A stretch of DNA of 41,581 nt from a virus. The position numbers were made by a program, and so were the translations under genes. Below are positions 11,765-30,438 of the stretch, piece by piece (positions within the stretch are counted from its first letter, which is position 1; the number at the start of each line of letters is the position of its first letter). The notes beneath the pieces are model-generated. The model was not told where the DNA came from. It saw nothing but the letters and a program-made list of their open reading frames with translations, and did no database searches. The stretch is taken from the IMG/VR virus record IMGVR_UViG_3300045988_101452. The stretch is one strand, 5' to 3'.

Positions 11765-12319
11765 TTATCGAATATTTTTTTGAAAATCTGGTAAGTCTTT
11801 TACATTTCTGATAGGGATAGCATTCTTTAACTTATTGCCCATTCCAGTTCCATAATAAAGTTGTTCCCATTTTGTCTTAGCTGTGTGGCATTTGCTACAA
11901 GCTATTGCAATGTTAGCTAAGTTAGTCCTATTCTCAGGCTCTACCTCATAAGGGACAATGTGGTCTCCGATGTTACCAGTTCTTACTCGCTTATGATTCA
12001 AACAATACTGACATAAATAGTTGTCACGTCTGAGTGCAATCTTTCTTATTGAGCGCCATTGTTTGCCTTGATAGAACTTATGTTGCTCTGCTTTAAATGG
12101 GTTTTTACTTCTCATTCGATCATAATCTTTGTATCGTTTACTATTATCAGTACGATTAGCCCATCGTTCTCTGCTTGCTTGATATGCTGCTTCTTTATCA
12201 GCGTGCTTAGTACAATAGTGCAGTGGTCTAATAACTACAGCGTGGCAGTTAGGCTCACGACAGCGTCCAGTCATTGGCAAGATAGCATCTCCTCTCATCA
12301 ACAATAAAAGGCTGCCCAT
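11765..12319 (-). CDS. HNH endonuclease (terminase-associated, cos-phage type); real start possibly internal Met
   Basis: CQYC...DHIVP...N...C..CH HNH motif; adjacent to terS. Confidence 0.75.
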   Translation of the reverse strand: MGSLLLLMRGDAILPMTGRCREPNCHAVVIRPLHYCTKHADKEAAYQASRERWANRTDNSKRYKDYDRMRSKNPFKAEQHKFYQGKQWRSIRKIALRRDNYLCQYCLNHKRVRTGNIGDHIVPYEVEPENRTNLANIAIACSKCHTAKTKWEQLYYGTGMGNKLKNAIPIRNVKDLPDFQKNIR

Positions 12320-12343: not shown

Positions 12344-12415
12344 TTCAGGATAACGGGATTGAACCGTTCTATTCTAGCTTATGAAACTAGCGTGACGCCT
12401 TGCCACCCATCCTGT
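12344..12415 (-). tRNA. tRNA-like element with CAU anticodon loop (Met-like); non-canonical (A1-A72 mismatch, G8G9)
   Basis: hand-folded cloverleaf: acceptor ACAGGAT/ATCCTGA, D GTGG/TCAC, anticodon stem CTAGT/GCTAG with loop TTCATAA, T-arm AACGG-TTCAATC-CCGTT. Confidence 0.35.
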
Positions 12416-12793: not shown

Positions 12794-13195
12794 TCAGTCC
12801 AAAGTATTTCTCCATAATCCATCCCTCAATGTTTTCTTAAATGATACGTATTGTTTTCTTGCAGCGTCTTCATCTAAGCAAACTCTTATTCCCACTTTAT
12901 ACCAAGATAACCGATGTTTAAATCTAGCGATAATAACATCCTTTACAATTGTTCCATGAATAACTTCCATTAATTCGTCAAGCGTTTGTTTCTGGTCATT
13001 AAGTCTACCAAGTTCTTTGTCAGCTTCTTTAATCAAATAGTTGCGCTCTTGTGGTGCAGTGTTTGAACTACTCCCACCACTTCCGATTCTTTCCTCATGT
13101 TTCTCACGAGTGATCCATCGTTCTCTTGAATTAATTTTAACTTGAAGCATTCCAGTCATGTAGTCACTTAATAACAAATCTAATCTATCCGCCAT
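12794..13195 (-). CDS. ArpU-family late transcription activator (candidate)
   Basis: 133 aa, position immediately upstream of packaging module, GGAGGAA RBS. Confidence 0.45.
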   Translation of the reverse strand: MADRLDLLLSDYMTGMLQVKINSRERWITREKHEERIGSGGSSSNTAPQERNYLIKEADKELGRLNDQKQTLDELMEVIHGTIVKDVIIARFKHRLSWYKVGIRVCLDEDAARKQYVSFKKTLRDGLWRNTLD

Positions 13196-24507: not shown

Positions 24508-25254
24508 CTAACTAGCTAAATCTTGTAAGAATTTGTTTACAAAATAGATTTGACCTTTGCCTGTTACTTTGGGCGTTTTGGTTACGGTGATCTTCCCACT
24601 ATTATGAACGTGAGTGTTTTCGGTAAACTCTAAAATACCTAAATTCATCGAACGTTGAGTTGGTGAGTTGTAGTCACTACCAATTTTCTTGACAAGGTAT
24701 CCATTATCTCTAAGCCAAGTAAATAATCGTTTCTCTCCGATATCAATTCCATTTTGTTTCAGGATTTTAGCTAAATCTCGAATGAGAATCGTGTTTTCGG
24801 AAGCTGAAACACTATCAGCGAATAACGCTTTTGGTTTCATTTGGCTTTTTTCAAGTTCAAGTTGCTTAATCTGATTTCCTGCTTGGAGTAGCAAATCAGC
24901 TAAACCATTACCAGAGATAACATCTTGAGCTTTTGCATCCGTCATATAAGCTCCGTGCTTGCGGATTGTTTTCAAAATTTCTTTTACTTTTTTCTTGAAA
25001 ACTTTAGCTTGTGGCTTTTTAGATGACATAAGAACTTCGTAAAGTCCATCTTCGGTTAAAAACCACATATTACGATTTTGACCTGATGCAAGGATTGGTT
25101 GCATTAGCTTTTCATCATCATCAACTGTTTTTAGCATTTCGGACGCTCTTGAGTGTTCGATGAGTTCTGCAATATCTTTTGCGAGAAATAAAGGATTTTC
25201 TGCTGTTCCGTAGATTTTGGCATTAAATCCATCAATATTTTGTAATTCATTCAT
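24508..25254 (-). CDS. antirepressor (Bro-N N-terminal, KilA-C/ANT C-terminal)
   Basis: Bro-N-like N-terminus; follows cro-like gene. Confidence 0.65.
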   Translation of the reverse strand: MNELQNIDGFNAKIYGTAENPLFLAKDIAELIEHSRASEMLKTVDDDEKLMQPILASGQNRNMWFLTEDGLYEVLMSSKKPQAKVFKKKVKEILKTIRKHGAYMTDAKAQDVISGNGLADLLLQAGNQIKQLELEKSQMKPKALFADSVSASENTILIRDLAKILKQNGIDIGEKRLFTWLRDNGYLVKKIGSDYNSPTQRSMNLGILEFTENTHVHNSGKITVTKTPKVTGKGQIYFVNKFLQDLAS

Positions 25255-25265
25255 GTTCCACCTCT

Positions 25266-25511
25266 TTAGCTAGCTTTTTCTTTTATACTGTTTAAACCGT
25301 ATGTTTTTCCTAAAAAAATAAAATCCATAGGATAATGATATATTTCAGACAACTCAATTAGCAAGCCTGTTGGAATGTTCTCACTATCCTTTTCATAACT
25401 CAGAATAGTTTGGTAGTGCTTTTTGACAATTTCTCCAACTTCTTTAGCTGTTAATCCAGCGTTGACTCGTGCTGCTTTTAATGTAATTTTTGGTGGTGTT
25501 TTCTCTGCCAT
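25266..25511 (-). CDS. Cro-like XRE-family HTH regulator
   Basis: LTAKEVGEIVKKHYQTILSYEKDSENIPTGLLIELSEIY HTH_3-like. Confidence 0.6.
   Translation of the reverse strand: MAEKTPPKITLKAARVNAGLTAKEVGEIVKKHYQTILSYEKDSENIPTGLLIELSEIYHYPMDFIFLGKTYGLNSIKEKAS
25285..25302. promoter_or_regulatory. operator-like site atactgtttaaaccgtat (1 mismatch to palindrome ATACTGTTTAAACAGTAT) upstream of antirepressor gene
   Basis: matches 16-bp perfect palindrome at 27135-27150. Confidence 0.45.
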
Positions 25512-25617
25512 ACTGGCTCCTTTCTGTGTGTGTATTTGAATCCTCCGAGTGCTATAATATTGTTGTAAATATTTCTCAGATATTTACTCAAAATTATGGA
25601 AAGGAGGAAATTAAATT

Positions 25618-25752
25618 TGAAAATTGATGCTGAAAAGTTTGCTTTAGCTGTTGTTTCGAGTTCTAGTCCAGACATGAAACTAGTTGAAAAACTATCGTTA
25701 TATGCCGAGGCATATAATATGATTGATAAAAACATCGAAAACGGTGGCATGA
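25618..25752 (+). CDS. small ORF (44 aa, TTG start, AAGGAGG RBS)
   Basis: strong RBS 9 nt upstream; followed by terminator-like hairpin 25770-25815. Confidence 0.3.
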
Positions 25753-25959
25753 AACAATCATAAAAATTTAAGTAACTCTGCAAGGGCCGATACCATTGCA
25801 GGGTTTTCTTTTGTGTTTGGATTTTCAAGAGTTTCCGTTACAAACTTTTCGATAGCAGGACAGATATTTTCTTTTCTTTGTTGTGCTGATTCAATGGCGT
25901 TTTCAAGAAATGATTCTCCCATTTTAAACTCCTTTCATTTAATTTATTCTGCATACGCA

Positions 25960-25996
25960 GTAAGGGAAATTCAGGAATCGAACCTGTTCGCCAGTC
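25960..25996 (-). other. tRNA 3'-half-like fragment (T-arm CAGG-TTCGATT-CCTG + acceptor-like ATTTCCC)
   Basis: minus strand reads ...CAGGTTCGATTCCTGAATTTCCCT; no complete cloverleaf. Confidence 0.35.
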
Positions 25997-26007
25997 TTCC
26001 CTGCTCA

Positions 26008-26039
26008 TTGTGAGCGATATCACAACTCCGTGATATAAT
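26008..26039 (+). promoter_or_regulatory. cassette promoter (extended -10 TGaTATAAT at 26031-26039) overlapped by three alternating TGTGA/TCACA half-sites
   Basis: TTGTGA 26008-13, TCACAA 26020-25, GTGAT 26030-34. Confidence 0.45.
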
Positions 26040-26075
26040 GTAAGTGACTAAACTAAAATTATATTGGAGGTTCTT

Positions 26076-26516
26076 ATGAACGATTTTAAATTGCCCGAGC
26101 ATAGGCAAGAGTATATCTCAAATTTCATGTCAGAAAATATCTATGTAGTTGAGGGGAAAAACGATATTAATTTTTCTGCTACATTGATTAATTTAAATTA
26201 TGAAAATGGTGCAGTCTACTATTTTTCGATATATATTTATGAAATCGAAAAGTATGAACTACTCCTTTCTGGAAAGCTTGAAGATTATCAAGCTCGAAAG
26301 GGAGGGATCGGTCAGAAAGTCGGACTTGTTCCCTTACTATCAAAATCAGACTCTTATTCACTTCCTAGCTATATTGATCTCCCAATACAAATGACTGTAA
26401 AAAACTTAAAATATGATACAGATAAAATTTATGCTGCAGTCTTCAAACTCAAAAATAAAGAGGGAAAAGAAATTTCGAAATCAGTGACATATTTGAAAGG
26501 GACTAATAATGGCTAA
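26076..26516 (+). CDS. cassette gene A: soluble 146-aa protein of unknown function
   Basis: GGAGG RBS 5 nt upstream of ATG 26076; no recognisable domain. Confidence 0.6.
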   Translation: MNDFKLPEHRQEYISNFMSENIYVVEGKNDINFSATLINLNYENGAVYYFSIYIYEIEKYELLLSGKLEDYQARKGGIGQKVGLVPLLSKSDSYSLPSYIDLPIQMTVKNLKYDTDKIYAAVFKLKNKEGKEISKSVTYLKGTNNG

Positions 26517-26802
26517 TAAATTTATCGATAACGAATTTGGCTCAATGTCGTACCAAGATAAAACTGAACCTTATGTTAAAAATACAATTCATGACGAAAT
26601 AAAAGCTCCTCTAATTGAAATTGCAAATTTAAAAGAACGAATCCTAAAAATAGAGTCAAAGATGGAATCTCAAGAAGATTTTGAAAGAATATCGAACGAG
26701 AGGCATAATAGATGGATTGCAATCATAACTGCTATTATTACGTTTTTTGTAGGTATACCAGGTATAATTTCTCTCATAATTCAGTTGTTTTCAAAGCATT
26801 AA
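26509..26802 (+). CDS. cassette gene B: 97-aa protein, coiled-coil N-terminus and C-terminal TM anchor; start overlaps stop of gene A (ATGGCTAA)
   Basis: translational coupling overlap; hydrophobic C-terminus IAIITAIITFFVGIPGIISLIIQLF. Confidence 0.6.
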   Translation: MANKFIDNEFGSMSYQDKTEPYVKNTIHDEIKAPLIEIANLKERILKIESKMESQEDFERISNERHNRWIAIITAIITFFVGIPGIISLIIQLFSKH

Positions 26803-26989
26803 ACTCGAACCATAGTACATTTTGGGTATTAATGCTATATACTTTCCCAGACGTTTTATCAAGATGCTTTAATATTAATTTTCGCGATAAAACTTCCTCT
26901 ATTTTTTCAATATCATTTTCAGATATCTTCATAGGAAGCTTTAATACATGCGATGGGAAAATTATAGATAATTGATATACTTGCTCCAT
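26774..26989 (-). CDS. first ORF of leftward early transcript (Cro position), about 71 aa from ATG 26989
   Basis: downstream of early promoter PL; convergent 29-nt overlap with cassette gene B. Confidence 0.35.
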   Translation of the reverse strand: MEQVYQLSIIFPSHVLKLPMKISENDIEKIEEVLSRKLILKHLDKTSGKVYSINTQNVLWFEFNALKTTEL

Positions 26990-27004
26990 ATTAGTAACCT
27001 TTCC

Positions 27005-27029
27005 GCCCCACTGGGGCTTTTTATTTGCC
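27005..27029 (+). terminator. plus-strand terminator GCCCCA-C-UGGGGC + U5 closing the cassette
   Basis: inverted repeat gcccca/tggggc followed by tttttattt. Confidence 0.55.
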
Positions 27030-27127
27030 AAACTTGCTACTTACGCTGAGTTGAATACAACGTGTAACTACATTCACAGAAGCTATGCAACTGTTTTGTT
27101 CGTTCGCTTGTTTGACTTTATGAGTTA

Positions 27128-27156
27128 ATTGTACTACTGTTTAAACAGTATGTCAA
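27128..27156 (-). promoter_or_regulatory. early leftward promoter PL: TTGACA-17-TACAAT with 16-bp perfect palindromic operator tactgtttaaacagta (27135-27150) in the spacer
   Basis: -35 27156-27151, -10 27133-27128 on minus strand. Confidence 0.55.
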
Positions 27157-27272: not shown

Positions 27273-27854
27273 ATGGGCAGAGGAACTTTAACACCTCAAG
27301 AAGAGGAATTAAAAAAGGTTATATCTAATAATATTAGAACAAAAATAAAAGAAGAAGGCATCTCTCAAGCTGAATTTGCTAGAAGAGCTGGAATACCTCC
27401 AACAACTTTGTCTGGATATATAAAAGGTGTAACTAGACCTAATGCTGGTAACCTTCAAAAAATTTCGGACACACTTGGCCTCCTAAAGTCTGATATTGAC
27501 CCTTCATATAAACAAGGCTACTCATTGGAAGATTGGAACAATAATAAAAAACAATCTCATTTGGTGAAAAAAATCACTGAAATCAGTTCTCAACTTGAAG
27601 AACCTCGCCAAAAAATAGTACTTGATACAGCTTCTTCTCAATTGGAAGAGCAAGAAAAGGCTAAAAAAGCTATTAAATCAAAACCAAAAATAACTCCTCT
27701 GTTCGATATAAATTCTCCGCTTACTGACGAAGAACTTCAAGAGGCTGTTGACGAAGCTGTAGCTTTTGATGGTGTCCCTCTGACAGATAGAGAAAAAGAA
27801 CTCTACAAGCATTTGCTCCGTGAAGCATGGGAAGAAGACCATGGCAGGGGGTGA
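27273..27854 (+). CDS. cI-like repressor, XRE-family HTH, 193 aa
   Basis: ISQAEFARRAGIPPTTLSGYIKG HTH; divergent from early promoter. Confidence 0.7.
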   Translation: MGRGTLTPQEEELKKVISNNIRTKIKEEGISQAEFARRAGIPPTTLSGYIKGVTRPNAGNLQKISDTLGLLKSDIDPSYKQGYSLEDWNNNKKQSHLVKKITEISSQLEEPRQKIVLDTASSQLEEQEKAKKAIKSKPKITPLFDINSPLTDEELQEAVDEAVAFDGVPLTDREKELYKHLLREAWEEDHGRG

Positions 27855-27859
27855 AATAT

Positions 27860-28294
27860 ATGTCAGTTATAAAGGAGTTATTGTTAGGACTCTCAGTAAA
27901 AATAAAATACTATAATCCTTCTGATTATCCGCATCTTAAAGATGGTATGAAATTTAATATTAGAGGACTAACATATATTTTTATTGATATCTTTAATAGT
28001 GAAATGGTCACTCAGAATATATTACTTCACGAAATGGGTCATGTTTCTTTTGGGCATAGGCATCTCGATTGTCGTTCCTCTGGTTGGGATAGAAAGCAAG
28101 AAAGAGAAGCTGACCGCTATATGATTGAATACAGAGCCGATGAGTGGTTAGCTCAATTCGACTGGGAACCAGACATTATTGATTATGATGCATTTATTGA
28201 GCATTTTGAGTTAGAAAAGCGTCATTATGGGTTAGTTGTTGAGGTGTTTGATGAAATGATCGGTCATGCTCAACTACATAGCCACTGTTTATAG
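27860..28294 (+). CDS. ImmA/IrrE-family zinc metalloprotease (HEMGH)
   Basis: HExxH motif LLHEMGHVSFGH; directly downstream of repressor. Confidence 0.65.
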   Translation: MSVIKELLLGLSVKIKYYNPSDYPHLKDGMKFNIRGLTYIFIDIFNSEMVTQNILLHEMGHVSFGHRHLDCRSSGWDRKQEREADRYMIEYRADEWLAQFDWEPDIIDYDAFIEHFELEKRHYGLVVEVFDEMIGHAQLHSHCL

Positions 28295-28664: not shown

Positions 28665-28692
28665 TTTCTCCTTAATCATGTCTTGCCCGACA
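28665..28692. repeat. 28-bp perfect direct repeat copy B, upstream of integrase
   Basis: identical to 24196-24223. Confidence 0.9.
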
Positions 28693-28710
28693 ATAGAGCA
28701 GGAGAAAAAA

Positions 28711-29892
28711 ATGAATATTAAAGAAGTCAAAAAAAAAGACGGTACAACCGTCTATAAAGTAAATGTTTATCTTGGTGTAGATAGCCTAACAGGTAAGCAA
28801 GTACGTACCACGGTTACAGCCAAGAACCGTAAAACGTGCGAGAACAAAGCTCACCAAGCTATGAATAAGTTTATCAAAAATGGGTCTACTGTTGCAAGAG
28901 AAAAAGTTTCATTTGACAATTTTAATGCCTTAGCCGCTAGTTGGTTTGATTCTTATAAATTGACAGTAAAAGCAAATACTATCAGAATCAATAGTAATTT
29001 TTTAAAAAATTATATTTTGCCAGCGATCGGAAACTATAAAGTTGAGAAAATTACAACTATACTATTGCAAAATATTGTTAATGACTGGGCTAGAAATGCC
29101 AATACTGCTGAAATAGTTAATGGTAATCGTGAGAAGGGAAAAAGCAAAGACTATAAGCTATTACTCAATATCATCAAACGCATTCTCGATTATGGTATGC
29201 AACTAGGTGTCATCTCAGACAATCCAGCTATAAAAGTATTTTCTCCAAAACTTAAGACAAGAACAGTCAAAAAAATAAAGTATTTTAATAATGATGAACT
29301 TAAACGCTTCTTAGCTTACCTTGACACTTTAGAATCAACCACAGCAAATAAAAAGAGCGCTACTCTATACAAGCTTTTACTTGCTACTGGTTTGCGTATC
29401 TGTGAGGCTTTAGCCTTATCATGGTCTGATATTGATTTTGTCAATAATACCGTTAGTGTATCTAAGACACTCATACAATACAGCAATGAGATACAAGACA
29501 GTGCAAAAACAAAAGAAAGCAATCGTTTAGTTTCTGTAGATAGCGAGACAATTTCAATGTTGAAAGAGTGGAGAAAACAACAAAATGACGGTGCTATATC
29601 TTTGCATGATTCTTTAGTTTTCTCATATCATCAAAAAATGAGAACTTACGAACTCGAAAGACAGCACTTAGTTCGACACTTTAAAAACGCTAAAGTTCCT
29701 AACATAGGTTTTCATGGTTTCCGTCACACTCACGCAAGCCTACTAATGAACAATGATGTAAATCCTAAAGAAATTCAAATGAGATTAGGACATGCAGATT
29801 ATTCAATCACAATGAATTTGTACAGTCATCTTGCTAAAGAGAAAAAGAAAGAAACTGCTGAAAAGTTCGCTAATATACTTAAAGCACTATGA
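28711..29892 (+). CDS. int: tyrosine integrase (phage integrase family)
   Basis: RHTHASLL and LGHADYSITMNLYSH catalytic motifs; GGAG RBS. Confidence 0.85.
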   Translation: MNIKEVKKKDGTTVYKVNVYLGVDSLTGKQVRTTVTAKNRKTCENKAHQAMNKFIKNGSTVAREKVSFDNFNALAASWFDSYKLTVKANTIRINSNFLKNYILPAIGNYKVEKITTILLQNIVNDWARNANTAEIVNGNREKGKSKDYKLLLNIIKRILDYGMQLGVISDNPAIKVFSPKLKTRTVKKIKYFNNDELKRFLAYLDTLESTTANKKSATLYKLLLATGLRICEALALSWSDIDFVNNTVSVSKTLIQYSNEIQDSAKTKESNRLVSVDSETISMLKEWRKQQNDGAISLHDSLVFSYHQKMRTYELERQHLVRHFKNAKVPNIGFHGFRHTHASLLMNNDVNPKEIQMRLGHADYSITMNLYSHLAKEKKKETAEKFANILKAL

Positions 29893-29911
29893 TTTTTTGA
29901 GTTTTTTTCCG

Positions 29912-30201
29912 AACGTAACTAAAAACGTAACTAACTGATATAATGACATCTGAAATCCCTTTATATAAGGGGTTCTAAGGATTTGTTGTGATACAGAGCT
30001 ATTATGGCATACTGTGTCAATAAATGTCAATAGATACCGCTAAACCTTGTTTTGTGGGATTTATAAAAATTATTGTACTAATGAATATCTATGAGTTACT
30101 TCTAAAACGTAACTAAAAACGTAACTAATTTTTGTCGGGCAAGAGGCTGTATATCTAAGATATACAGTTTTTTTATTTTAATTAACGTAACTAAAAAAAC
30201 T
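29912..30201. repeat. attP-like region with iterated aacgtaactaa(a) units (candidate integrase arm-type sites)
   Basis: aacgtaactaaaaacgtaactaa at 29912-29934 and 30106-30128; partial at 30185-30201. Confidence 0.6.
30147..30178 (+). terminator. plus-strand terminator ctgtatatct-a-agatatacag + T-run
   Basis: 10-bp perfect inverted repeat then tttttttatttt. Confidence 0.6.
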
Positions 30202-30239
30202 CCTTTTAGAAGTTTCTACTATTTTAATATACATTTTTA

Positions 30240-30313
30240 TGGTTCTTGCTGGACTCGAACCAGCGACCGAACGGTTATGAGCCATTAGCTCTGACCAACT
30301 GAGCTAAAGAACC
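30240..30313 (-). tRNA. tRNA-Met (anticodon CAU)
   Basis: canonical cloverleaf by hand: GGTTCTT acceptor, D-arm AGCTCAGTTGGTCAGAGCT, anticodon loop CTCATAA, T-arm GCTGG-TTCGAGT-CCAGC. Confidence 0.8.
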
Positions 30314-30438
30314 GAGTATGATAATCTGTAGCACTTATAAATTTATAAGTGTGGACGGTACTGCAGATTATCAAAGATACTGTAAAAGAAATAATTTTCT
30401 CGTCCACTAAATATATTATAACACACTACTATAAATAA

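What the first reader, a model, noticed from the sequence alone, without database searches (positions are those of the whole stretch)
25960..26048. tRNA 3'-half fragment and a triple TGTGA/TCACA dyad at the cassette promoter
Upstream of the cassette the minus strand carries a T-arm + acceptor-like piece (CAGGTTCGATTCCTGAATTTCCC) with no 5' half. This is the kind of scar left by tRNA-targeted integration or recombination. The cassette promoter (TGaTATAAT) is overlapped by TTGTGA-N6-TCACAA-N4-GTGAT, resembling CRP/FNR- or Rex-type dyads (Rex consensus TTGTGAA-N4-TTCACAA). This would tie cassette expression to a host regulator or redox state.
Basis: inference. Interest (0 to 1): 0.55.

Follow-up and report, generated by a model that had tools for sequence, protein, structure and literature searches.

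The report
Conserved phage switch-region junction, not tRNA scar
The flagged stretch is a roughly 115-base regulatory junction shared by about a hundred Lactococcus temperate phages, holding a promoter for an ever-changing accessory (often anti-phage) gene slot next to a conserved tRNA-like hairpin block, and it is not an integration scar or a demonstrable redox or sugar switch.

Summary
The window is a complete P335-type Lactococcus phage. Its real tRNA-linked attachment region, with integrase, arm repeats and an intact tRNA-Met, lies about 4 kb away at 29.9-30.3 kb.

The flagged region is part of a roughly 115-bp intergenic module found in 104 loci (9 GenBank phage records plus IMG/VR contigs). 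It always sits between a variable minus-strand early gene and, in 89 of the 104, a conserved TGnTATAAT promoter. That promoter faces a hypervariable plus-strand slot holding at least 25 unrelated protein families, several of them homologues of defence proteins.

The tRNA-like piece is a T-arm look-alike. No tRNA model accepts it, and it is shared by phages with unrelated integrases.

The perfect TGTGA/TCACA dyads are private to this window. Relatives read TCATAA, and some replace the TGTGA hairpin with unrelated hairpins. The conserved features are therefore the hairpin and the -10 box, not a Rex or CRP site.

Best reading: a prophage accessory-gene promoter back-to-back with a structured leader of the early lytic transcript. 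The promoter part is well supported. The RNA role is inferred.

The parts
25758..25922 (-). 54-aa early-side ORF that directly follows the block in minus sense. Its Shine-Dalgarno sequence AAAGGAG is at + 25929-25935.
   Evidence: ORF list. The sequence shows GAAAGGAG-N7-ATG. In relatives this position is taken by at least 10 unrelated small genes, mostly cro-like HTH proteins, always behind the same SD and block.
25949..25960 (-). Hairpin a: CTGC-ATAC-GCAG.
   Evidence: The stem is invariant in 56 unique copies, while the loop varies (ATAC, TTTC, ATTC, ATCC and 5-nt loops). It is predicted in every fold.
25963..26002 (-). tRNA-top-half-like core. Read on the minus strand it runs: 5' strand GGGAAG (+ 25996-26001); linker (+ 25987-25995); T-arm-like CAGG-TTCGATT-CCTG (+ 25972-25986); AA; 3' strand TTTCCC (+ 25964-25969).
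   Evidence: Inverted repeat I6. T-loop motif present in only 1% of shuffles. 35-mer exact in 77 IMG/VR contigs. Block identity is about 95-96% whether or not the flanking genes are related. The same T-arm occurs in real tRNA-Ile genes. Closest 3' end is tRNA-Pro(UGG). No tRNA call.
26003..26015 (.). Hairpin c: GCTCA-TTG-TGAGC. Its right arm supplies the TGTGA half-site and the weak -35-like GTGAGC.
   Evidence: Four different hairpin versions occupy this same position in relatives: GCTCA/TGAGC, GCTCACAA/TTGTGAGC, GCTCAAG/CTTGAGC and GTGGC/GCCAC.
26008..26036 (.). Overlapping dyads TTGTGA-N6-TCACAA (26008-26025) and ATATCAC-N6-GTGATAT (26017-26036). A cre-like 14-mer, TGTGAGCGATATCA, sits at 26009-26022.
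   Evidence: The C at 26023 that perfects both dyads is private: 83 of 89 copies read TCATAACT.
26031..26039 (+). Extended -10 promoter element TGATATAAT. The predicted transcription start is near 26046.
   Evidence: TG and TATAAT are conserved in 89 of 89 promoter-bearing copies. In several classes homology breaks directly after the -10 box.
26040..26075 (+). 5' UTR of the accessory slot, with SD GGAGG at 26066-26070.
   Evidence: The UTR and the first codons (ATGAA) are shared by unrelated downstream genes.
26076..26802 (+). The 'cassette': a 146-aa ORF (26076-26516) and a 97-aa ORF with a hydrophobic C-terminal stretch that looks like a membrane span (26509-26802). Function unknown.
   Evidence: No Pfam or PADLOC hit. 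One weak PHROG hit of unknown function for the 97-aa ORF. The exact proteins are on about 275 contigs and are named only 'hypothetical'. The AlphaFold model is poor, pLDDT 52.
27005..27027 (+). Plus-strand intrinsic terminator GCCCCACTGGGGC followed by a T run. It ends the cassette transcript inside the leader of the early promoter.
27128..27156 (-). Early lytic promoter (equivalent to BK5-T P1), TTGACA-17-TACAAT. It is the only strong (11 of 12) minus-strand promoter match upstream of the block.
   Evidence: The equivalent consensus promoters in BK5-T and bIL309 are likewise the only strong minus-strand promoters upstream of their blocks.

Best explanation
The region is one copy of a conserved, roughly 115-bp intergenic junction module in the lysis/lysogeny switch region of P335-type Lactococcus temperate phages. 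It has two halves.

**Right half: a promoter.** Hairpin c is followed by TGnTATAAT, an outward-facing sigma-A promoter with an extended -10 box. It drives a hypervariable plus-strand slot of prophage accessory genes, many of them homologues of anti-phage defence proteins. The transcript ends at the terminator at 27005. The promoter is probably expressed in the lysogen without a phage-specific operator.

**Left half: a structured leader.** Hairpin a and the tRNA-top-half-like core lie inside the early lytic transcript, which starts at the promoter next to cI. They always sit about 12-14 nt upstream of the Shine-Dalgarno sequence of whichever early gene comes next. I infer that this half acts at the RNA level, as a leader that stabilises or processes the 5' end of the downstream early message. 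I also infer that both halves serve as the homologous 'linker' at which gene modules are swapped.

**What is shown and what is inferred.** The anatomy, the conservation and the mosaic breakpoints are shown. Promoter activity is inferred from consensus and conservation. The RNA role is inferred.
For: **Phage context.** The window is a complete P335-type phage.

**Distribution.** The element is aligned in 9 GenBank phages. It is found in 104 loci overall and once per phage.

**Flanks.**
- The left flank holds at least 10 unrelated genes, joined at the SD.
- The right flank holds at least 25 unrelated protein families, joined just after the -10 box or after ATGAA.
- Slot proteins include Abi_alpha, DUF4145/PD-T7-4, TIGR02391/PD-Lambda-3_B and a TIR-like effector.

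**Promoter.** TG plus TATAAT is invariant in 89 of 89 promoter-bearing copies.

**Constraint on the block.** Block identity is 95-96% even where neighbouring genes are unrelated. It is 95% where homologous neighbours are only 83% identical.

**Hairpins rather than sequence.** Hairpin c is kept as a hairpin through four different sequences. Hairpin a keeps its stem while its loop varies.

**Independence of the two halves.** BK5-T, bIL309 and L239 keep the block without the promoter. In those phages it lies inside the P1 early operon, with no other minus-strand promoter nearby.

**Transcription through the block.** No minus-strand terminator lies between P1 and the block in the window.
Against: - No transcript data were available, so promoter activity and lysogen expression are unproven.
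- The -35 region is weak: GTGAGC at 18 nt.
- No base pair shows a compensatory double change beyond one locus in hairpin c.
- The predicted minimum-energy folds do not use the T-arm pairing itself, and z-scores are modest at -1.1 to -2.3.
- The window's own cro gene (25266-25511) has a junction without the block, so the block is not needed in front of every early gene.
- High identity could partly reflect recent spread or gene conversion rather than selection.
Confidence: 0.6

Rival explanations
1. The fragment is a scar of tRNA-targeted integration or recombination. On this reading it is the 3' part of a host tRNA left behind by an integrase.
For: - The T-arm string is identical to that of real tRNAs.
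- The T-arm plus CTTCCC resembles the 3' end of Bacillota tRNA-Pro(UGG).
- The T-loop motif is rare by chance.
Against: - The fragment is not next to the integrase gene. The true att region, with arm repeats and an intact tRNA-Met, is at 29.9-30.3 kb.
- The same block occurs in phages with unrelated integrases (29% identity), always at the cro-side junction.
- It differs from tRNA-Pro by an indel and substitutions. The best local alignment score is 30, against a background of 24-27 elsewhere in the window.
- Rfam gives 13 bits, E about 1.
- A scar would not be expected to carry a matching 5' acceptor strand, or to be more conserved than the neighbouring genes.
Confidence: 0.06
2. The dyad over the -35 region is an operator for a host global regulator, so that cassette expression follows carbon or redox state. 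The candidates are CcpA acting at a cre site, Rex, or a CRP/FNR-type protein.
For: - TGTGAGCGATATCA fits the classical cre consensus TGWNANCGNTNWCA exactly, and this is its only match in the window (11% of shuffles).
- The TTGTGAGC left part of the 14-mer is unchanged in 60 of the 89 promoter copies.
- It is centred near -30, a position suited to repression.
- CcpA and Rex are universal in Streptococcaceae (PMC3616900).
- The window has an exact TGTGA-N6-TCACA.
Against: - The TCACA half-site is private: 83 of 89 copies read TCATAACT.
- TGTGA itself varies (TGCGA, TATGA). In some classes it is replaced by unrelated hairpins while the promoter is kept.
- The site has 4 mismatches to the streptococcal Rex operator. 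A Rex-like match is expected by chance in 43% of shuffles.
- The central CG is off the centre of the 18-bp dyad.
Confidence: 0.13
3. The block is a tRNA-top-half mimic: an acceptor-like stem stacked on a T-arm, with the D and anticodon arms replaced by a short linker of about 7-9 nt. On this reading RNase P and/or RNase Z recognise it in the early transcript. They cut the message free from the upstream RNA, which is antisense to the cassette, and leave hairpin a at the new 5' end.
For: - The 7/5 architecture is present. It has 6 Watson-Crick pairs plus an A.A pair, then an A.A pair plus 4 pairs, a canonical T-loop, a discriminator and no CCA.
- Real tRNA-Ile genes use the same ACAGG/CCTGA T-stem.
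- Two flank classes break exactly at the 5' end of the acceptor-like stem.
- Single-sided changes in that stem are G.U-compatible on the minus strand in 9 unique sequences, against 2 on the plus strand.
- Acceptor/T-arm minihelices are known minimal RNase P substrates (established knowledge: McClain, Guerrier-Takada and Altman 1987).
Against: - The 9:2 bias falls to about 6:2 independent changes, which is not significant.
- There are no compensatory pairs.
- Minimum-energy folds prefer other inner pairings.
- BK5-T and L239 lack the 5' strand.
- There are two central mismatches.
- There is only one copy per genome, so it is not a general punctuation system.
Confidence: 0.12
4. The block has no function of its own. 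It is a short homologous linker kept near-identical by frequent recombination and gene conversion among co-resident prophages, and it hitch-hikes with the adjacent ribosome-binding site and promoter.
For: - Mosaic breakpoints fall at several different positions on both sides.
- All copies are at least 93% identical, and no diverged homologues were found outside lactococcal phages.
- Unpaired positions are as invariant as paired ones.
Against: - The block is more conserved than adjacent homologous coding sequence (95% against 83%).
- Hairpin c is replaced by other hairpins rather than by random sequence.
- The block is retained in architectures that lack the promoter.
Confidence: 0.15

Closest known systems
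Prophage 'moron' or defence-hotspot loci: an accessory gene with its own promoter and terminator at a fixed site between conserved phage genes. Examples are the P2/P4 hotspots (Rousset et al. 2022) and the lactococcal sie genes between int and cI (Mahony et al. 2008, cited in PMC7693887).
   Same: A fixed position between conserved flanks. Its own promoter and its own terminator. Unrelated genes from phage to phage, several with homology to defence families. Orientation opposite to the lytic genes.
   Different: The slot lies between the cro-side early genes and the cI-proximal early promoter, not between int and cI, so the early lytic transcript must read through it in antisense. The conserved flank is a 115-bp non-coding module rather than a gene. 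I found no description of this slot in the literature I could search.
tRNA 3'-end fragments at attP/attB sites of tRNA-targeting integrases
   Same: A T-arm and acceptor-like 3' strand sequence.
   Different: It is not adjacent to int and is not tied to one integrase family. It has an internal-deletion-like shape with a 5' strand. It does not match any tRNA end sampled. The phage's real att region is elsewhere and holds a complete tRNA-Met.
Structured intercistronic or leader elements of phage early operons. Examples are the T7 RNase III sites, the lambda N-leader, 5' stabiliser hairpins in Gram-positive mRNAs, and the RNase P-processed C4 RNA of P1/P7 and CI RNA of P4.
   Same: A cluster of conserved hairpins just upstream of a ribosome-binding site, inside an early polycistronic transcript.
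   Different: The stems are too short for RNase III. No processing data exist. The resemblance to a tRNA top half is the only pointer to a specific nuclease.
Rex, CRP/FNR and CcpA (cre) operators
   Same: An 18-bp dyad with TGTGA/TCACA arms, or a cre-consensus 14-mer, overlapping the -35 region.
   Different: The dyad is imperfect in nearly all relatives and is replaced in some. The spacer is GC-containing where Rex sites are AT-rich. The match is statistically unremarkable.

Membership tests
tRNA gene or tRNA fragment | Recognised by tRNA detectors or a covariance model | tested here: not met
   ARAGORN calls only 12344-12415 and 30240-30313. Rfam shows no tRNA hit in 25850-26150 at E up to 10. 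A search allowing a 5'-truncated match gives tRNA-Sec at 13.1 bits, E 0.96, against a gathering score of 47.
tRNA gene or tRNA fragment | Canonical T-loop (GGTTCGAWTCC) closed by a T-stem, followed by a 7-nt acceptor strand | tested here: met
   The same ACAGG-TTCGATT-CCTGA arm is present in ARAGORN-called tRNA-Ile genes. A complementary 5' strand, GGGAAG, is present (I6).
tRNA gene or tRNA fragment | Match to the 3' end of a host tRNA | tested here: inconclusive
The pattern hits mainly tRNA-Pro(UGG) of Bacillota, including Streptococcus: CAGGTTCGAATCCTGTCTTCCCGA against the element's CAGGTTCGATTCCTGAACTTCCCT. That is one indel plus substitutions. No Lactococcus genome was in the sample.
Integration (att) scar | Adjacent to the integrase gene or att site, and specific to one integrase family | tested here: not met
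   The int gene is at 28678-29892. Arm repeats and tRNA-Met lie at 29912-30313. The same block occurs with an integrase only 29% identical and in BK5-T, bIL309 and TP712.
Rex operator | Fit to TTGTKAWAAWWTTCACAA or TTGTGAANNNNTTCACAA, and conservation in orthologous promoters | tested here: not met
   4 mismatches to the streptococcal motif. 2 mismatches to the general motif, a level reached by 43% of shuffles. 83 of 89 copies read TCATAACT.
CRP/FNR-type site | TGTGA-N6-TCACA dyad, conserved and suitably placed | tested here: not met
   The dyad is exact in the window but private to it and two other loci. It is centred near -30 rather than the -41.5 or -61.5 typical of activation. Whether a cognate regulator exists in Lactococcus was not tested.
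cre site (CcpA) | Fit to TGWNANCGNTNWCA near a promoter | tested here: inconclusive
   Exact fit at 26009-26022, reached by 11% of shuffles. It is kept in most copies but lost in the variant hairpin classes. Binding cannot be tested here.
Sigma-A promoter with extended -10 | TGnTATAAT with a downstream SD and start codon. A mapped transcription start. | tested here: met
   The sequence feature is met and invariant in 89 of 89 copies. The simple scan did not list it because the -35 region is weak. The transcription start cannot be tested with these tools.
Prophage moron or defence hotspot | Unrelated cargo genes at one position between conserved flanks, with some cargo belonging to known defence families | tested here: met
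   At least 25 protein clusters occupy the same position. Pfam and PADLOC hits: Abi_alpha, DUF4145/PD-T7-4, TIGR02391/PD-Lambda-3_B, TIR-like, PDC-S47. The window's own two cargo proteins have no hit.
Structured RNA element | Base pairs supported by compensatory changes | tested here: inconclusive
   0 of 13 consensus pairs show double changes. Hairpin c exists in four sequence versions. One-sided changes in the outer stem favour the minus strand 9:2. Fold z-scores are -1.1 to -2.8.

The most novel reading that the evidence does not exclude
The invariant block is a tRNA top-half mimic embedded in the early lytic mRNA of P335 phages. It consists of an acceptor-like stem, a short linker of about 7-9 nt and a T-arm. 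On this reading, host tRNA-processing enzymes (RNase P and/or RNase Z) use it as a punctuation signal. They detach the early message from the upstream RNA that is antisense to the defence cassette, and expose a hairpin-protected 5' end.
Probability: 0.12. Interest if true: 0.7.

Novelty: new member of a known kind. Interest (0 to 1): 0.4.

Why it matters
The element marks a previously unremarked, easily searchable address in lactococcal prophages: a 35-nt tag followed by TGnTATAAT. Behind it sit dozens of different accessory genes, several related to known anti-phage systems and many with no annotation. This could be used to mine new defence genes in dairy starter strains. The adjacent invariant tRNA-like hairpin block is more conserved than the genes around it and has no assigned function. 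If it proves to be an RNA processing or stabilising signal, it would explain how early lytic transcripts cope with reading antisense through a lysogen-expressed cassette.

Tried and rejected
- **Rfam.** I ran cmscan on the whole window, on the 301-nt region, and on a 38-nt stretch cut so that a 5'-truncated tRNA match was allowed. No family fits.
- **tRNAs in the held loci.** None matches the fragment beyond the T-loop.
- **Minus-strand promoter.** I looked by eye and by scan for a sigma-70-type minus-strand promoter inside or beside the block. None was found in the window, BK5-T or bIL309.
- **Intrinsic terminator.** Rejected, because no T or U run follows any of the hairpins on either strand.
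- **Phage repressor operator.** Rejected. The cI and cro-like proteins differ between phages that share an identical element. This phage's cI region has different palindromes.
- **LexA/Cheo box.** CGAAC-N2-GTTCG inside the block has the wrong spacing, N2 rather than N4.
- **PurBox, CIRCE and ComX-box readings.** Checked by eye and all fit poorly.
- **Repeated punctuation signal.** Rejected, because nhmmer finds one copy per phage.
- **Diverged homologues in other phage groups.** None found.
- **Literature.** Searches and five papers gave no description of the element. Two older papers were not held.
- **Structure of the 146-aa cassette protein.** The prediction was too poor to use, pLDDT 52, so I did not run a fold search.

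Full report
**What the window is.** Megablast places the region among Lactococcus P335-type temperate phages. The gene content confirms a complete, circularly permuted phage.
- On the minus strand lie terminase, portal, capsid, tail (Dit, collagen-repeat tail proteins, BppA-like), holin and GH25 lysin.
- The early genes include a cro-like HTH gene (25266-25511) and an antirepressor (24508-25254).
- The lysogeny module is on the plus strand: a cI-like HTH gene (27273-27854), an ImmA-type metalloprotease (27827-28294), a small ORF and the integrase (28678-29892).
- Between the integrase and the lysin lie repeats of ACGTAACTAAAAACGTAACTAA and an intact tRNA-Met at 30240-30313. ARAGORN calls this tRNA, and Rfam scores it at 66.7 bits.
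- That is the phage's real attachment region, and it is tRNA-associated. It is about 4 kb from the finding.

**The observation.**
- The T-loop 11-mer GGTTCGAWTCC occurs once in the window, and only 1 of 100 shuffles has a match.
- The 101-nt element is enriched in perfect inverted repeats of at least 6 bp: 4 against 0.5 expected, and 14 of 1000 shuffles reach this.

Two details need correcting.
- The tRNA-like piece is not without a 5' partner. On the minus strand GGGAAG lies 9 nt upstream of the T-arm-like hairpin and pairs with the 3' strand (I6). The whole piece looks like a tRNA that has lost its D and anticodon arms.
- GTGAT is one arm of a separate 7-bp repeat, ATATCAC-N6-GTGATAT (I2).

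**The element is a conserved module.** A 156-nt query finds it in 15 records of the phage collection: TP712, 63301, D6867, D7138, D7893, bIL309, BK5-T (some held as duplicate records) and three unnamed phage assemblies. I aligned nine of these phages with the window. Three pattern scans of IMG/VR bring the total to 104 loci, with 90 unique sequences.
- On the left, the element is always followed in minus sense by a 12-14-nt AT-rich spacer, the SD AAAGGAG and a start codon. The gene behind it belongs to at least 10 unrelated families, mostly different cro-like HTH proteins.
- On the right, 89 of 104 copies continue with ...GAGCGATATCATAACTCCGTG(A/C)TATAAT. After that, homology breaks, either directly after the -10 box or after a shared 5' UTR and the first codons (ATGAA).
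- The first plus-strand ORF belongs to at least 25 unrelated clusters.
- Some of these clusters hit Abi_alpha, DUF4145/PD-T7-4, TIGR02391/PD-Lambda-3_B, a TIR-like effector and PDC-S47.
- The window's own cargo has no family hit apart from one weak PHROG match of unknown function for the 97-aa ORF. It consists of a 146-aa protein and a 97-aa protein with a hydrophobic C-terminal stretch that looks like a membrane span. Databases name both only as hypothetical. The structure model was poor.

**The promoter.** TG and TATAAT are invariant in all 89 promoter-bearing copies. The SD and ATG sit at a fixed distance. A plus-strand intrinsic terminator follows the cargo at 27005-27027. The -35 region is weak (GTGAGC at 18 nt), which is why the simple scan did not list the site. 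From established knowledge of extended -10 promoters, a strong -35 is not required. I regard a promoter here as well supported by sequence and conservation, but it has not been demonstrated.

**The dyads.** The C at 26023, which makes both dyads perfect, is private.
- 83 of 89 copies read TCATAACT, 3 read TCATTCTT, and only the window and two loci of another class read TCACAACT.
- The closest relative carrying the same cargo (L067) has T at this position.
- The TGTGA arm varies (TGCGA, TATGA).
- The 13-nt palindrome GCTCA-TTG-TGAGC that contains the TGTGA arm is replaced in other classes. The replacements are GCTCACAA-TAAT-TTGTGAGC, GCTCAAG-ATAACA-CTTGAGC and GTGGC-TAAT-GCCAC. What is conserved there is a hairpin, not the TGTGA sequence.
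- The site has 4 mismatches to the streptococcal Rex operator (PMC6018154). A Rex-like match appears by chance in 43% of shuffles.
- The sequence does fit the classical cre consensus exactly (11% of shuffles). CcpA and Rex both exist in Streptococcaceae (PMC3616900). Host control therefore cannot be excluded, but the comparative data do not point to it.

**The tRNA-like block.** No detector calls it a tRNA. A search that allowed a 5'-truncated match gives 13 bits, E about 1.
- A scan of representative genomes, cut at 120 rows, shows that the pattern belongs mainly to tRNA-Pro(UGG) of Bacillota. The element differs from it by an indel and substitutions.
- The best local alignment score is 30, only slightly above the background of 24-27 in the window.
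- The T-arm 19-mer itself is identical to that of real phage tRNA-Ile genes, so descent from a tRNA, or mimicry of one, is possible.

An integration scar is not supported, for three reasons.
- The block sits at the same switch-region junction in phages whose integrases are only 29% identical.
- It is far from int.
- It is under constraint. Block identity is about 95-96% whether the neighbouring genes are unrelated or homologous, and 95% where homologous neighbours are only 83% identical.

**Which strand matters.** In BK5-T and bIL309 the block is present without the plus-strand promoter. There it lies inside the early operon that starts at the consensus promoter next to cI, and no other minus-strand promoter is nearby. 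In L239 the block is fused directly to the leader of that promoter.
- In the window the equivalent promoter is at 27156-27128, and no minus-strand terminator lies between it and the block.
- The early lytic transcript therefore reads through a small ORF (26774-26989), then antisense through the cargo genes, then through hairpin c, the tRNA-like core and hairpin a, and reaches the next SD.
- The plus-strand cargo transcript starts downstream of all these hairpins. In most phages, therefore, only the minus-strand RNA contains them.

This arrangement, and the fixed coupling of the block to an SD, lead me to favour an RNA-level role as a leader that stabilises or processes the 5' end. The evidence is indirect.
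- Hairpins are conserved through changes of sequence.
- One-sided changes in the outer stem favour minus-strand G.U pairs 9:2. This reduces to about 6:2 independent kinds of change, which is not significant.
- No compensatory pairs appear in the consensus fold.
- Predicted minimum-energy folds use other inner pairings than the T-arm, with modest z-scores.
- The window's cro gene has a junction without the block but with a similar promoter core, CTCCGAGTGCTATAAT. The block is therefore not obligatory before every early gene.

**Comparison with what is known.**
- The right half behaves like a prophage moron or defence hotspot with a conserved promoter.
- In lactococcal phages the described accessory slot is between int and cI, holding the sie genes (PMC7693887). 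I found no description of this cro-side slot or of the conserved element in the papers I could search.
- The left half is closest in kind to the structured intercistronic elements of phage early operons. Its tRNA-top-half shape recalls minimal RNase P substrates, which is a lead and not a test.

**Verdict.**
- The 'integration scar' and 'Rex/CRP' interpretations are not supported.
- The promoter reading is supported.
- The thing itself is a widespread, conserved junction module of P335 phages: a new member of a known kind, with one unexplained and unusually conserved tRNA-like component.

Noticed in passing
window 29900-30320: This is the likely attP region. Repeats of ACGTAACTAAAAACGTAACTAA (29912-29935, 30106-30130, and a partial copy near 30185) flank a complete tRNA-Met (CAT) gene at 30240-30313 (-), between the integrase and the lysin. 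The phage carries a whole tRNA at its attachment region.
   Followed up: partly
window 12344-12415 (-): ARAGORN calls a second tRNA-Met here, but Rfam does not report it at gathering threshold. The sequence has an odd D-arm region. It may be a degenerate or false tRNA call between two minus-strand ORFs (11765-12319 and 12794-13195).
   Followed up: no
window 25541-25763: There is a second, block-less copy of the accessory promoter core (CCTCCGAGTGCTATAAT, -10 at 25553-25558), divergent from cro. It is followed by a small plus-strand ORF (TTG at 25617 to 25763, 48 aa, PHROG 6930 of unknown function). That ORF converges on, and overlaps by 6 nt, the 54-aa minus-strand ORF.
   Followed up: partly
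window 26774-27031: The second cargo gene (ending at 26802) overlaps, convergently by 29 nt, a small minus-strand ORF (26774-26989, starting MEQVY like BK5-T ORF36). The cargo terminator (27005-27027) sits in that ORF's leader. The lysogen-expressed cargo mRNA is therefore fully antisense to the first early gene.
   Followed up: partly
related loci L010-L105 (for example L058, L033, L066, L042, L072): The slot behind the conserved promoter holds at least 25 unrelated protein families. They include Abi_alpha, DUF4145/PD-T7-4-like, TIGR02391/PD-Lambda-3_B-like, a TIR-like protein and DUF2321, plus many small membrane proteins with no annotation. These are candidate new defence or exclusion genes.
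   Followed up: partly
L004 2852-2864, L005 about 2720-2740 and about 2925-2945, window 27005-27017: A GC-rich hairpin followed by a T run on the plus strand (GCCCC-N3-GGGGC TTTTTATTT in the window and bIL309, a GCCC/GGGC variant in BK5-T) recurs just upstream, in minus sense, of the SD of early small ORFs. It occurs even in phages that have no plus-strand cargo gene to terminate.
   Followed up: no
window 27273-28294: The cI-like repressor (193 aa) shows only an HTH domain hit, with no peptidase domain detected. It overlaps an ImmA/IrrE-type metalloprotease gene by 28 nt. This suggests protease-mediated derepression rather than RecA-stimulated self-cleavage.
   Followed up: no
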